A stretch of DNA of 58,445 nucleotides, counting the filler, from Asterionella formosa (Eukaryota), in NCBI GenBank assembly GCA_002256025.1. It is 4 parts of 4 records of this genome, joined end to end, with 100 filler letters (N's around TTAATTAATTAA, not from the genome) between each part and the next. Parts side by side here need not be neighbours in the genome. Positions count along the whole stretch, not along the records: positions 1 to 14,540 come from NKIB01005945.1; 3 more parts are not named here. One strand, given 5' to 3'. Below, piece after piece: positions 4,839 through 55,774 of the stretch. Position numbers and translations under genes: made by a program. Numbering within the stretch: the stretch's first letter is position 1; every line of letters begins with the position of its first letter. The notes beneath the pieces are model-generated. The model saw only the letters and a program-made list of their open reading frames with translations. It had not been told where the DNA came from and did no database searches.

Positions 4839-5072
4839 TGGGAATGGCTAAGTGGTTAGCACACATGTCGCAGTGGCAGGGTTGATTCCTGCATTCTCCA
4901 CCTGTCTTTTCATGTAGTCCCTAGGGTTCCAGGGGGTGTGGCTGACGAAAAGACAGGTCCCGTTGTACCGTACAGACGAATAAAACCGGAACTAATTGTG
5001 TCCATTAATTCATTTATTTGGGCACAAGTGCGATTATTGGAAAGCTTTAACGTACTATAAGATTTGATTGAT
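4839..5072 (+). mobile_element. tRNA-derived SINE-like element, copy 1 (diverged)
   Basis: A-box-like TGGCTAAGTGG and B-box-like GGTTGATTCC. Body is colinear with 55137-55359 (gcattcNNcacctg, gtagtccctNgggttcc, gtgcgaYtaY, cgtactataa) and ends in a ttga-repeat tail. Confidence 0.7.
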
Positions 5073-5090
5073 AAATTTAAAAAAAATTAC

Positions 5091-31200: not shown

Positions 31201-31285
31201 GGAAGGCCCAGTAGTGCACGTTTTATGCACACTTTTTCAGTTTCGACTCACTCCCAATGATTCGTCCCAGCCAGCATGCCTACCG
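31201..31285 (+). repeat. dispersed ~70-85-bp repeat (other copies 31402-31453, 35465-35549, 45250-45310, 45461-45538, 50647-50683)
   Basis: Shared core gtgcacgttttatgcRcactttttcagtttcgactcactcccaatgattcgtccc(atgcctaccg), all in the same orientation. Confidence 0.85.
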
Positions 31286-31773
31286 TGTGGGATAGATCAA
31301 TAACATTTTTTCCTATATCTGCCATACTGATCAAAACAACCAATATTCATCTACCGGTTCTACTGGTACCAGGTACACCTTCTGGTACTGTCTCGGACAG
31401 TAAGGTCCGGAAGTGCACGTTTTATGCGCACTTTTTCAGTTTCGACTCACTCCGAACAATTACCGGCATTAGTACCTGCCTACCGTTACCCTGGTACCAG
31501 GTACCGGTAGTCCCTATGTACTGGCATGTTAGCACGTTCGACAAAGCTCGCGAAATGTAGGTGTATACCTGTAGACTGGTAACTGGGCCTGTCCGTGCCG
31601 GTTGACGGATTTTGGATTTCCACAAACAACAGCAAAGCAAATGATCATTGCTCGCTCCGTATGTAGACGACCTGTAGTAGAATTGAGATGTATGAAGCCG
31701 GTATTGTGCCGGTACGCACATTGAGAATTTGAGAACTTTGACACCGCTACTGGTAATCCATTTTAACGTAACC

Positions 31774-35269: not shown

Positions 35270-35357
35270 ACCCAGGTACCTGGTACTACGTACTGGTACC
35301 AGGTACCAGGTACCGGTACTCCGAGTCCAGGGTACCTGGTACCAGGTACCAGGTGCC
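35270..35357. repeat. densest TACCAGG/TACCTGG heptamer chain
   Basis: cccaggtacctggtactacgtactggtaccaggtaccaggtaccggtact...gggtacctggtaccaggtaccagg. Confidence 0.85.
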
Positions 35358-35457: not shown

Positions 35458-35551
35458 TCTGTTTGGAAGGTCCGCTACCAAGTAATGCACGTTTTCTGCG
35501 CACTTTTTCAGTTTCGACCACTCCCAATGATTCGTCCCATGCCTACCGGCC

Positions 35552-41783: not shown

Positions 41784-41996
41784 TAGTTTTCATAGTGCCA
41801 GCAAAAAACTGCACTGACCCACTGTTTTATCCCATTCATATAAGATGAGAATTCCAAACTTGGGATTATCCGTGCTTTTCAATATTCTACCAATGGAGTA
41901 ATAGAACCCTGCGGTATACGATGGAATTGTCCAAGAAGTTCTACCAGGTACCAGGAGGTACCAGGGTACTATAGGACCATTAAAGTGCTACATTAA

Positions 41997-43197
41997 GGTT
42001 GCGGCCCCGGCTTAACCCTAGTTCGGAGAAAATGTCGCTAGGGTTGTTAAAACGGCGTGGAACAGGGAGTTTCCTACTATGAATTCCCATGATTCGAGTG
42101 TCACTTTAAGTATTTGAATTAAATAGCAGGAATCGGCGCCAGATTGATAGAGTTCCATTTTAAACAAACATTTTTCTTTCCATTTTAAACAAACAAAAAT
42201 GATATTTAAACATCTTTATTATATCTACGTTACTCTATGTAGAGATATTTTTGCTCCACGCCAAAATACATATATAAATCAGGAGTATGCTAATGTGTAT
42301 GCGCATGGTTCTTGTTCAAACAAAGAGAAATGATGTCATTTTTATGTTTATATTGAATCTACATTGCTGTATGGTGTAGTTTCAATACTACTCTACTCCC
42401 AAAGGCATATACTGGTATATAAATCAGTGCCGGAGTACCAGTAGCTATAGTAACTAGTACCTGGTACATAATCCTGTTTCATGATGATTGAAGACAGGAT
42501 GAAACTACCTGTACCAGGTAGTAAAGATTTTCATATCGGTATGCAGTGCATCTAACACATGTGGTTCAAGTGTGGCTGGTATGATTTTACAAGACTGGGA
42601 TACTTCAGCAAATCTGGAGCAGGTGAGGAGTAAATTATATTCAACCAATCAGAAAATTTGTTGTGATGCGGGAACTTAGTACCCTGGAGTCTTTTCGGAT
42701 AGAGAATTATTCAGCAAAAATACCTACGCAAGACTCTAAGTCTACGAGAACGTTTTTGCACGTACTAATTCCGATTCCAATATTTTGGCGACTGTTGAAA
42801 AAGCCGATCGGGTCGACTTTTTGGAAGAGTATTGCTCTACATCTACGGGGTTTCATGACGATTAAAATAGATAGCCGTGTACCCTATAACGTCAGGAGTT
42901 AACTTCTGAAGAGAAGTGGCAGCTATGTATCGTAGATTTTTTGAAAAGCTTCGTAGCCCCTTTTTCTGGGATAACTGCCACTTCTCTCTAGAAATGAGGT
43001 CCTTTTTCAATATAGATCATACCCCTAACAAGTCGAGCAATGACAGAATCTAAGCATATGCAAAGTGGTTGTATTGGTGAAAGCTTATTTTTCCTTTAAC
43101 TATTATATTTAGTTGTATGTACTGTGTAGATTGAAATACATCATAAAATATTTTGGAAAAAACAGACCTCGCAATGTGTAACTGCGGGGCTGCAACC
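41997..43197 (+). mobile_element. Kolobok-type non-autonomous element, copy 1
   Basis: TTAA|GGTTGCGGCCCCG...CGGGGCTGCAACC|TTAA, i.e. TTAA TSD with RR...YY termini. Internal inverted repeat agagaagtggcag/ctgccacttctct. Confidence 0.8.
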
Positions 43198-43220
43198 TTA
43201 ATGAAAGTGTGTTTGCTTAA

Positions 43221-43814
43221 GGTTGCAGCCCTCGGCTTAACCCTAGTTTGGAGAAAACGTCGCTAGGGTTGTAAAAACGGCATGGAACAGGGAGTTTGCT
43301 GCTATGAGTTCCTATGATTCGAGTGTCCATTTGAATATTTGATTTAAATAGCTAGGAGTCGGCGCCAGATAGATAGAGTTCCATTTTGAACAAACAAAAA
43401 TGATATTTAAACGTTTATACTGTATGTGGCTACGTTGCTGTATGTAGACATAATTTTGTTCCACGCCAAAACACATAAATAAATCAGGAGTAGCTATGCC
43501 TAGCTAAGTGTATACTCATGACTCATGATATTTTGTATCCGTTTATATTGAACCTTAAAGCTGTTTGTAGATTTAATATTACTCTACCTGGTACCCCCCG
43601 AAAGGCATATTACTCTACACTCAAAGGCACATACCGGTATATAAACCAATACCGGAGTAACGGTGTACCAGGGTACCTGGTACCGGTAGCACATAACGGT
43701 AATCTTGGTTAATGACGATGGATGATGAAACTACCGGTGGTACACAGTACATCTAATACATGTGGTTCAAGTGTGGCTGGTATGATTTTACAAGACCGGG
43801 ATACTTCAGCAAAT
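43221..43814 (+). mobile_element. Kolobok-type non-autonomous element, copy 2 (runs into gap)
   Basis: TTAA|GGTTGCAGCCCTCGG; colinear with 41997-42613 up to the gap. Confidence 0.8.
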
Positions 43815-44587: not shown

Positions 44588-45559
44588 AAATGACCGGCCG
44601 ATAAAGTCAGCAGTAGATTCTGTTATAAAACCTTCTCACAACTCCTCTTTGTTGGCTGATCGATATGGGCAACAACTAGGAACCATACAACATCCTGGTT
44701 AAAAAGAGAAACAGATGTTATCGCGAATGACGGCATCCTCAAAACAAAACGAAGTTGTTGAAGACAGCTGCAGGGACAAACTGCCCCCATCATGTATGCC
44801 AAATCATACGGGATTCGCTGTAGGATTCACATCCAAATATAGTTGCGAAAGAACAGAATTGGTTCTTATTACCCCGTTTCTTCTTACCAATTGCTTTTGC
44901 GGTGATGCCGACATAATTCAAGAGTTCGTTGATTCTCTGGCAACGACTTATAGAGGAAGGCTGAAGCAAGGAGAGAAGAGAATCAGTTGACAACGAACCA
45001 AAACGCAGGAAAACGGCCACTCTTTCTTAGCTGTAGGGGTGCTCGTGAGGGATTAAAAACAACGAAAAGATACATGGTGATAGATATCCTGTACCAGGGT
45101 ACCAGAGTGCACTATCTATGTACCTGGTAAATTGGTACGCTACTCCGAGTACCTAAAACGCTGTCTATAAATAACAAGGAGGGCATGGCTGGACTATGGT
45201 ACCCCTGGTACCAGTAGTACCAGGTACCAGGAATTGTAGTTGTGGTTGTTTTATGAGCACCTTTTCAGTTACAATTCACTCCCAATTTTTGTCCCATGAT
45301 GCCTGCCGGATGAGATAGGCCAGCTTTCAATGAAAATAATATTCCTAAATGATTTAGAAAAAAATTACTCTTAGTGACCAACGACAATTTGCAGAACGAA
45401 ACTCTGAACATGACTTGTTGGATTTGCTGCCTGATCAACTGCTCAACTGGGCCTTCCAGGAGGCAAGGCCCAGTAGTACACATTTTATGTGCACTTTTTC
45501 AGCTTTAACTCACTCCCAATGATTTTTCCCATGCCTAATGGAGCAAGGCTGGAAAATGA

Positions 45560-53665: not shown

Positions 53666-55136
53666 GACGTTTCCTTCCTAGGGGTGATAATTTTCCCAGT
53701 AAGTTTCCGATAAAACTTGTTATGACGTAAGATGTATCCAACCATTTTTGAATTGAAACTTTCGAACTAGAGAAACTTGATACACTTTTCTTCATGTGGT
53801 TGCCTCGCTTAGCTATTTTATGTATTATACCATAGAGACTTGACTGTGGTTTGTGCTTCCTCTGTATCTAAGTTTCGGGTATCGGCAACTGACAAAATCT
53901 GTATGGTGTTTGGTAGAGGGTATACCGACATTACATGATTTTTAAAGAGCAGGGTCATGGAAATCTAATGGGAGTGTTTCCAAAGAGGCAGGAGGCAGGA
54001 ATATACTGCTTTTTGTACCTGTTGCAAAAGCATAAGATCCAAATAAAAACTGATTTTCTTCAATGTGCAAGGGAAGGAGTTGGCGCCATGCAACAGATTC
54101 ATCAGGCTCAGTGTTCTCTGTGATTCCGGGAGGTCCTTGGTTACGTGAAAGCCTTGAGCTTTGCAATGATCCGCTAGCTGATGATCCTTTGCTGCCAGGA
54201 TACAGAGGAGGAGTGTTGTTCCATTTTTTAACCGCCATGCAAGGAAGGACAAGTGGCTGGTTGTTGGAAGTAGCCGACATTGATGACTGTTCACTGAGAT
54301 GGTAAAATATGGCGATGGAAAAAATTATAATAGTTGCTGAGAAAATTTTAAAGTATGCGTTAAAGAGCCGCAACTATTGTGGAGTTTGTTGGGTCGCACT
54401 TTGGCCCAGAGGGCCAGGTTTGTAGATGAAGAACGATGGATCTGGGCGAGGAGCCCCATGCGGCTCTTAGAGGATGGAGGAGACTTGTCTTTTAAGAATG
54501 CCTGTGAATATATGTACTGAAAATCTTGTCCTTTGTCAGCCTAGTCTCCTCGTTCATGCACATTGAGAGTCAGATACATTTCCTCCTGACACGCCTCTTT
54601 CATTGCAAGAGCGGTTGCAGTGACTTCAGCGTCTCCGACCAGTTCTTCTACAACACTAAAGTTACCTTCGTAGACCAAAACCCAAAGGTAAGTGGTAAGT
54701 TCATTGCGGAGCAGATATATCTGCATTAGCCAGTCCCATTCCGGCTTTGTGACAACCAAAGATAAATTGTTTGTTGATAGAAAAGTCTTTTGCTTCCATT
54801 GCATTATTTCCTATCTCACTTCTCCACCAACTCTTCAACTTCATCCCATCGGCACTGACATTCAGGGCAACCAAAATCGAAGCATTCGCAGACGATACAT
54901 GCCCCACAACCCTCCAATTCCGACTCTACAATTAACCGGTCTTGACATGTTGGACAAGTATCATGACTGTAGTTGAATTAGAAGACGCCTTCGTTGTCCA
55001 AACGGTGTGTATTTCACTCATTGTGGATTGTTGCGTTTTCGGTTATTAGTCATCAACAAATATTTGCCATGCCACCGGGTCGAATGACACATACATGTTG
55101 ATCGTATTACAGGGTATATATATATACATCGAACTA

Positions 55137-55359
55137 GGTGAATAGCAAATTTGGTTAGCTCACCTTCCAAGGTGGTGGGTTCGATTCCCGCATTCTTCAC
55201 CTGCTTTGCTTGTTTACGTAGTCCCTTGGGTTCCGGGTGGTGAGGCAGACAACAAGCAGGTCTAAGGCCCTCTGAGGGGCAAAGTGCGACTACACAGCAA
55301 CCTCCACAATCGTCGAGTTCTTTAATAATAGCGTACTATAAAATGTACTTAATAATTAT
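55137..55359 (+). mobile_element. tRNA(Gly-TCC)-derived SINE-like element, copy 2, with 16-bp TSD
   Basis: TSD tatatacatcgaacta (55121-55136) and tatatacatcgagcta (55360-55375). tRNA-like head with anticodon arm cacc-ttccaa-ggtg and B box GGTTCGATTCC (55178-55188). 3' end gcgtactataaaat followed by an AT-rich tail. Confidence 0.85.
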
Positions 55360-55774
55360 TATATACATCGAGCTATTTAGACTGCATAGATATATTTTTA
55401 GCGAATTCGAAAAGGAATCTATGTAAATACGCACGAATTTCCACTGATTTAAATATTCCAAATGGAATCATGTCATTCAAAATTATTCCATAGAAATTCA
55501 TAGTTCCAGGGAGTTTCGGCAACCCTACTATCGTGCGTCGCATGAGTGCTTCTGATTAGCGCTGAAGGAAACTCTCTCGAGTTGGCGTTGCTTTGGCGTA
55601 GTGCGAGTTTAATTTGCCAATTTTACATTGACAATGTGCACTTACTTCAGCCTACAGCGGCGATGTTTATGGTTGCGTCATTTTGGTGTATGAGGATGGC
55701 GAAAACTCTTTTCGCTGTCATTTCTTGGCCGATTCATACCTTCTCCGCATATGTACCATATGTTACTTGAGTTG

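What the first reader, a model, noticed from the sequence alone, without database searches (positions are those of the whole stretch)
4900..5037. SINE body keeps a covarying, pseudoknot-capable RNA fold directly behind the tRNA head
Seen in both copies despite sequence divergence. Helix A is acctgtcttttc/gaaaagacaggt in copy 1 and acctgctttgcttgttt/agacaacaagcaggt in copy 2. Inside it lie a conserved gtagtc and a small stem closing the loop NGGGTTCC. After 'ctaa' comes a hairpin of entirely different sequence (ttgtgtcca/tgggcacaa versus gccct/ggggc), then conserved gtgcgaYtaY, whose gactac (gattat with G-U pairs) can pair back to gtagtc. Copy 1 has one extra hairpin. Inference: the helix order resembles the nested pseudoknot of HDV-like ribozymes, but the canonical HDV core nucleotides are not clearly present. 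It may be a new structured RNA, possibly self-cleaving or RT-recruiting.
Basis: partly seen in the sequence, partly recalled or inferred. Interest (0 to 1): 0.78.

Follow-up and report, generated by a model that had tools for sequence, protein, structure and literature searches.

The report
Diatom SINE hairpin, not a pseudoknot
This is part of a common short jumping element (a SINE) of a diatom-like alga; its RNA keeps a long hairpin and a borrowed LINE-type tail, but the proposed ribozyme-like pseudoknot is not supported.

Summary
The motifs are present, but they belong to two modules of a multi-copy tRNA-Ala-derived SINE with at least three lineages (A, B, D). Helix A is real: lineages A and B differ in it by two double compensatory changes and one base pair lost from both strands. 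The downstream hairpin and 'gtgcga' are the 3' tail shared with a resident RT/RNase H-type LINE, where AGUGCG pairs with CGUACU and no gtagtc core lies upstream.

The pseudoknot is not supported. Gactac occurs in 2 of 45 B copies (consensus GACTTC), and lineage A2 has AATTAT. Lineage D keeps the core on a different tail. GUAGUC has a local partner (GGCWGAC), and the distal pairing is no better than random 9-mers (640 of 3000). HDV core nucleotides are absent, Rfam gives no match, and 63 of 63 assessable copies extend upstream of helix A, against cleavage there.

One thing stays unexplained: a 22-nt apical core is almost invariant across lineages (rough p 0.04, selection-biased). The scan has reported this SINE family many times on other pieces of this genome. 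Verdict: a new member of a known kind, of low to moderate interest.

The parts
4840..4900 (+). Copy 1 (lineage A1): tRNA-Ala-like head with A and B boxes and a shortened anticodon arm
   Evidence: Ends match the genome's tRNA-Ala(AGC) L128 by inspection (20 of 62 tRNA matches were fetched). Heads of three other copies score 20-27 bits on Rfam tRNA, below the cut-off of 29.
4900..4958 (+). Copy 1: long imperfect hairpin. Helix A 4900-4911 with 4947-4958; GUAGUC 4914-4919 paired locally with GGCUGAC 4940-4946; near-invariant apical core 4912-4933
4965..4992 (+). Copy 1: extra hairpin (GUACCG/CGGUAC in the consensus, one mismatch here), shared by lineages A and D and absent from B
4996..5085 (+). 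Copy 1: LINE-type tail. Hairpin 4996-5027, terminal stem AGUGCG 5027-5032 with CGUACU 5051-5056, AT-rich end
55121..55136 (+). Copy 2: left target-site duplication; the right copy is 55360-55375 (16 bp, 1 mismatch)
55137..55199 (+). Copy 2 (lineage B): tRNA-Ala-like head
55199..55261 (+). Copy 2: helix A hairpin with core 55218-55234 and local partner GGCAGAC 55244-55250; carries a copy-specific 4-nt insertion
55266..55359 (+). Copy 2: LINE-derived tail. Hairpin 55266-55280, AGUGCG 55283-55288 with CGUACU 55332-55337, inner GUCG 55312-55315; the gactac at 55288-55293 is copy-specific
   Evidence: 75-78% identity over 80 nt to LINE 3' UTRs L227 and L390
54329..54415 (-). Same tail on a different element (family C, a 1.2-kb non-autonomous LINE derivative) that has no tRNA head and no gtagtc core; an internal control in the window

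Best explanation
A modular tRNA-derived SINE. The tRNA-Ala-like head serves as an internal Pol III promoter (inferred from its A and B boxes). Behind it the RNA folds into one long bulged hairpin: helix A, then GUAGUC paired locally with GGCWGAC or GGCUAA, capped by a short CCY..GG-GUU-CC..RGG apex. This head-plus-hairpin module has been joined to at least three different 3' tails. The B tail is clearly copied from the 3' UTR of a resident RT/RNase H-type LINE, and the A tail keeps the same anchors. The tail (hairpin plus AGUGCG/CGUACU stem) is most likely what the LINE's reverse transcriptase recognises for target-primed reverse transcription (inferred from the shared tail, the TSDs and established SINE biology). 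Helix A most likely stabilises the RNA and keeps the tail folded. Because it begins at the tRNA discriminator base and the following CC, it may also shield the head-body junction from tRNA 3' processing (inference, untested). No pseudoknot and no catalysis are needed.
For: Copy number and TSDs: 215 and 674 candidates for B and A; TSDs in 54 of 76 assessed copies against 17 of 76 shuffled controls. Helix A: 94.5% of cells paired, two columns with both-sided change (UA/GC, UA/CG) and a base pair lost on both strands in B (16 hand-picked copies of about 146); outer pairs have probability 0.85 or more in all 6 group consensuses. RNAalifold by itself pairs GUAGUC locally. In D, 8 of 21 core-bearing copies start the core with T; all 8 gain a U-A pair with the local partner and none can pair with the distal one. 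Tail: LINE 3' UTRs right after an ORF stop carry hairpin + AGTGCGAC..AGTCGA..CGTACT; the terminal stem is 96.7% paired over 15 LINE and SINE sequences, with G-C to A-U in lineage A2. The ORF's nearest Atlas clusters are diatom proteins and RNase H/RVT clusters, with a weak zf-RVT hit.
Against: Covariation rests on only three or four master lineages; the tool's pair-count measure does not exceed its shuffles (299 of 500). The terminal stem is not predicted in the A3 and D consensuses nor in window copy 2. The model does not explain why the 22-nt core is nearly invariant (1 change against about 5 expected from the head's rate, Poisson p 0.04). The A and D tails were not matched by BLAST to a LINE 3' UTR. 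No probing data exist.
Confidence: 0.82

Rival explanations
1. GUAGUC forms a real long-range pseudoknot or switch with the segment just after the tail hairpin, alternating with the local fold to control how the tail is shown to the LINE RT.
For: All three tail types offer 5-6 complementary bases there (GAUUAU, GACUUCA, GCUACG; duplex -4.1 to -5.6 kcal/mol), while 6 of 7 core-less LINE-type tails give only -2.6 to -3.2. In the B consensus the site is the best of 77 downstream 9-mers, and opening cost roughly equals helix gain in B and A3. In window copy 2 itself the pairing is favourable (cost 4.6, gain 12.8).
Against: No compensatory change: the 5' side is invariant, B has a U-U mismatch, A2 has C-A in 11 of 14 copies, and 8 of 21 D copies break the end pair. 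Random 9-mers do as well in 640 of 3000 trials (308 of 3000 by the worst family), and the core-less LINE L408 gives -4.5. The GAC is inherited from LINE tails, where it faces the tail's own GUCG. The shared G covaries with the terminal stem instead (15 G/C, 9 A/T, 4 G/T, 6 A/C among 34 scorable of 75 A-type copies, p 0.034; CpG decay and common descent confound this). No pseudoknot loop penalty was included.
Confidence: 0.1
2. The body is a self-cleaving ribozyme, HDV-like or of a new class.
For: The helix order can be drawn like HDV, with an 8-nt loop closed by 3 bp. Lineage A contains CUGACGA, a hammerhead-like word. One of the two window copies hit a relaxed HDV descriptor.
Against: The relaxed descriptor hit 14 of 148 sequences and 14 of 148 shuffles; the hammerhead descriptor hit 0 of 148 (both descriptors were written from recalled consensus and not validated on a positive control). 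No Rfam ribozyme match. HDV ribozymes cut immediately upstream of their core (PMC3185411, passages), which here would remove the promoter, as PMC5786205 section 23 notes for SINEs; 63 of 63 assessable copies extend upstream of helix A.
Confidence: 0.03
3. The folds are neutral by-products of descent from one ancestral hairpin and are not under selection.
For: Few lineages; A and B are still 73-80% identical over the 5' module; the z-scores of the two window copies are unremarkable (-1.4 and 0.0).
Against: All helix A differences between A and B are matched across the two strands, and D lengthens both strands together.
Confidence: 0.05

Closest known systems
tRNA-derived SINEs with a LINE-shared 3' tail ('stringent' SINE/LINE pairs; PMC3747384, passages read)
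   Same: tRNA head, TSDs, and a tail shared with a LINE 3' UTR whose stems vary in sequence but keep pairing.
   Different: Diatom-like host; the partner is an RNase H-type LINE whose clade I did not determine (Ambal is a recalled candidate only); the tail has two stems.
SINE central domains such as the Vhc stem-loop, MESC and Snail (PMC4758252, passages read) and CORE, V, Deu (named there)
   Same: A conserved middle module predicted to form a bulged stem-loop and recombined with different tails.
   Different: Seen so far in one genome only. Sequence homology to these domains was not tested, because no SINE library was available.
Plant SB1/S1 SINE RNA (PMC2408557, passages read)
   Same: tRNA-derived SINE RNA built of bulged stem-loops, argued to be under structural constraint.
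   Different: SB1 loses the tRNA fold, whereas here acceptor and T stems are still predicted. No protein binding was tested here.
HDV-like ribozymes of non-LTR elements (L1TcRz; PMC3185411, passages read)
   Same: Only a superficial order of helices.
   Different: Those sit at the very 5' end and carry the P1.1 pseudoknot and core nucleotides; here the fold is internal, behind the promoter, and the core is absent.
Putative SINEs of Phaeodactylum tricornutum (PMC5859163, passages read: 13 elements, 1,454 bp)
   Same: SINE class in a diatom.
   Different: The family here has hundreds of copies. Their sequences (supplements) were not examined.

Membership tests
tRNA-derived SINE | tRNA-related head with A and B boxes | tested here: met
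   closest to tRNA-Ala(AGC) L128 among the 20 tRNAs fetched.
tRNA-derived SINE | Short, dispersed, multi-copy, with target-site duplications | tested here: met
   TSDs in 54 of 76 assessed copies against 17 of 76 controls, 48 not assessed.
tRNA-derived SINE | 3' tail shared with a LINE | tested here: met
   B tail 75-78% identical over 80 nt to LINE 3' UTRs; A shares the AGTGCG and CGTACT anchors; no LINE found for the D tail.
tRNA-derived SINE | Pol III transcription as a discrete RNA | not testable with these tools
   Only assembled contigs were available; they cannot show starts or ends.
HDV-like ribozyme | Nested double pseudoknot with a conserved P2 pairing | tested here: not met
   Distal pairing broken or at chance level across lineages; local pairing preferred.
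HDV-like ribozyme | Core nucleotides: L3 with CC pairing to GG after P1, catalytic C before P2' (consensus recalled) | tested here: not met
   Loop WGGGUUCC, junction CCCG or CUAA; relaxed descriptor 14 of 148 against 14 of 148 shuffles; no Rfam match.
HDV-like ribozyme | Cleavage just 5' of P1, so that copies begin at P1 | tested here: not met
   0 of 63 assessable copies begin at helix A (67 of the 162 pattern matches were examined).
HDV-like ribozyme | Self-cleavage in vitro | not testable with these tools
   Needs a bench assay.
Hammerhead ribozyme | CUGANGA, stem II, GAAA | tested here: not met
   0 of 148 on either strand; B and D lack CUGANGA.
Described SINE central domains (CORE, V, Deu, Meta, MESC) | Sequence homology to the domain consensus | not testable with these tools
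SINE body derived from a LINE 5' UTR (PMC5786205) | Body homologous to the 5' part of a LINE | tested here: inconclusive
   No match of the body HMM or CM in 20 LINE stretches and 9 family C loci, but only about 3.4 kb of the LINE's 3' end was recovered.

The most novel reading that the evidence does not exclude
The near-invariant 22-nt apex is a new, sequence-specific SINE central RNA domain. Its GUAGUC strand toggles between the local hairpin and a long-range pairing with each of three separately acquired tails, acting as a switch that gates access of the LINE reverse transcriptase, or as a weak ribozyme of a new class.
Probability: 0.08. Interest if true: 0.7.

Novelty: new member of a known kind. 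Interest (0 to 1): 0.24.

Why it matters
Diatom SINEs appear in the papers I read only as software-assigned classes (PMC5859163, PMC12803021; searches found no described family). This family gives a clear head, hairpin domain and swappable tail, plus a candidate partner LINE, so tail recognition by a diatom LINE could be tested. The design itself is well known from animals and plants. It would matter much more only if the apex proved to be a switch or a catalyst.

Tried and rejected
Rfam scans of the window and of 9 copies: nothing on the body beyond chance-level hits. Body as a second degenerate tRNA: 211 and 204 of 300 shuffles scored as well. Body from a LINE 5' end or family C: no hit, LINE 5' end not recovered. 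The RVT_1 search gave a GC-rich LINE and LTR-type elements with no SINE tail in the 50 loci examined. RNA runs: B-type sequence lies in contigs of 4 of 4 RNA runs, some long and continuous across the head-helix junction, but contigs show neither ends nor levels and may hold DNA, so I do not use this as evidence. A genome-wide search with the covariance model could not be run, so diverged families with this core may be missed. Regex tallies and the B tally were mis-anchored and were replaced by the alignment-column counts. The PDB search of the LINE ORF and the Pfam scan of L415 found nothing.

Full report
Setting. The window holds eukaryotic genes and gaps and lies in G000 (68.4 Mb). The partner LINE's nearest Atlas clusters are mostly diatom proteins, so I call the host diatom-like. 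The finding is the middle and tail of a short repeat that occurs twice in the window (about 4840-5085 and 55137-55359).

Observation. The two copies align at 73% over 112 nt. Searches of G000 gave 215 candidates for copy 2 and 674 for copy 1, 40 scored each. The core pattern has 162 exact matches against 1 for the reversed control. From the fetched loci I extracted 145 distinct hits, 124 of them near full length: 79 A-type and 45 B. TSDs were found in 54 of 76 assessed copies against 17 of 76 controls, with 48 not assessed; copy 2 has a 16-bp TSD. By inspection the head matches the ends of the genome's tRNA-Ala(AGC) best among 20 tRNAs fetched of 62 matches. This is a tRNA-derived SINE.

Lineages. 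A-type copies fall into motif groups A1-A4. A further lineage D has the same head, helix A, core and extra hairpin as A but a different, longer tail (85 candidates; 26 rows aligned, 21 with the core). The 5' module and the tail are therefore separable.

Helix A is real. On 16 hand-picked copies, 94.5% of cells pair. Two columns change on both sides (U-A/G-C and C-G/U-A), and B lacks one U-A pair on both strands. D lengthens both strands. The outer pairs have probability 0.85 or more in all six consensuses. Limits: these are few independent events, the pair-count measure does not beat its shuffles (299 of 500), and related sequences inflate the other measures.

The hairpin and 'gtgcga' are a LINE tail. 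A third repeat in the window (54329-54415, minus strand) shares only this part. It belongs to a 1.2-kb family with no head or core. A protein search with the C-terminus of L227 gave 62 matches. In most of the 25 loci examined the ORF stop is followed by a GC-rich hairpin, then RGTGCGAC, TAGTCGA and CGTACT. The ORF resembles RNase H/RVT clusters and has a weak zf-RVT hit. The B tail is 75-78% identical to these UTRs over 80 nt. Over 15 LINE and SINE sequences the stem AGUGCG/CGUACU is 96.7% paired, with G-C to A-U in both A2 rows.

The pseudoknot is not supported. The distal hexamer is GACTAC in 2 of 45 B copies (28 GACTTC, 8 AACTTC), GATTAT in 18 of 24 A1, AATTAT in 11 of 14 A2, and split in A3 and A4. 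The 5' side is the same in the A1, B and D consensuses, so nothing is compensatory. RNAalifold pairs GUAGUC with the nearby GGCWGAC. In D, 8 of 21 copies have T at the first core position; all 8 gain a local U-A pair and lose the distal pair. Random 9-mers match the three tail segments as well as the core does in 640 of 3000 trials, and the core-less LINE L408 pairs as well as A1 and nearly as well as B. Opening cost exceeds helix gain clearly in A1, A2, A4 and window copy 1, slightly in D, and about equals it in A3 and B. In favour of the pseudoknot: all three tails do offer 5-6 complementary bases, the B site is the best of 77 downstream windows, and in window copy 2 itself the pairing is favourable because of its private change. 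I leave about 10% for a switch.

No known ribozyme. Rfam has no match on the body. My relaxed descriptor, written from recalled consensus and not validated, hits real and shuffled sequences equally (14 and 14 of 148), including one window copy; the hammerhead descriptor hits none. HDV ribozymes cut just upstream of the core (PMC3185411, passages), which would sever the promoter; PMC5786205 (section 23 and passages) makes this point for SINEs. Of 67 pattern matches examined, 2 were chance, 2 lay at contig edges, and 63 extended upstream of helix A (52 scored automatically, 11 by eye).

Unexplained. The 22-nt apex differs at one position among A1, B and D, while their heads differ at 8-11 of 62 (Poisson p 0.04). 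D was found through this motif, so the estimate is biased. Its origin is unknown: it is not a second tRNA, and it was not found in the recovered LINE parts, family C or SINE family E or in metagenomes.

Mechanism. Shown: modular anatomy, helix A covariation, tail shared with a LINE, TSDs. Inferred: Pol III transcription from the head, recognition of the tail by the LINE RT, and a stabilising role for the hairpin, possibly protecting the head-body junction from tRNA 3' processing because helix A pairs the discriminator base and the next CC.

Known kinds and literature. It resembles SINEs with stem-loop central domains that swap tails (PMC4758252, passages) and structured SINE RNAs (PMC2408557, passages). 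Searches found no description of this family; diatom SINEs appear only as classes (PMC5859163, PMC12803021, passages). Supplements and SINE libraries were not seen and could hold a match. Earlier notes of this scan describe the same family on other pieces of the genome; I treated them as leads. Verdict: new member of a known kind, interest 0.24.

Noticed in passing
L229-L245 (G000, 579 candidates): Another abundant tRNA-headed SINE-like family (E), about 370 nt, with two T-arm/B-box-like segments and a different body that lacks the core.
   Followed up: partly
window 4907-4910 region and A/D copies: Most A-type and D copies carry a run of five T inside helix A (32 of 44 typical A copies; copy 1 has four). 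From general knowledge this is a Pol III terminator-length run, yet A is the more abundant lineage; B has at most three T.
   Followed up: partly
L188, L193, L202, L184, L204; tail at window 54329-54415 (-): Family C: about 1.2-kb non-autonomous LINE-like elements with a shared 5' start, a decayed Ser/Pro-rich frame and the LINE tail; several subfamilies.
   Followed up: partly
L415, L430, L433 and others: A diverse RT/RNase H-type LINE family that Pfam barely detects; the RVT_1-led search did not lead to it. Some copies are 96-99% identical, so probably recent.
   Followed up: partly
L246-L270: The lineage D tail has its own hairpin (CUGGC/GCCAG) and a possible AAGCGCU/AGCGCUU stem, like the LINE tail in layout but not in sequence; no partner LINE was found.
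   Followed up: partly
L091-L104, L207-L212: A GC-rich LINE with endonuclease and RT on many short, near-identical contigs, unlike the host's composition; possibly from a co-sequenced organism.
   Followed up: no
L223 (G000:C9266): A short contig whose translation looks like mammalian L1 ORF2 (recalled), probably contamination.
   Followed up: no
L206 (G000:C10287): An ORF of 1058 aa or more with RT motifs that looks like telomerase reverse transcriptase (by inspection).
   Followed up: no
window 35291-35355, and 31203-31269, 31402-31456, 35478-35545, 45465-45537: A dispersed GGTACC-rich quasi-palindromic repeat that gives chance miRNA hits in Rfam.
   Followed up: no
window 41993-42613 and 43217-43814: A diverged direct repeat, 70% over about 660 nt.
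   Followed up: no
window 55050-55120 and 55390-55500: Copy 2 sits inside another repeat; contigs of run X9 join across the insertion, like an empty site or paralogue.
   Followed up: no
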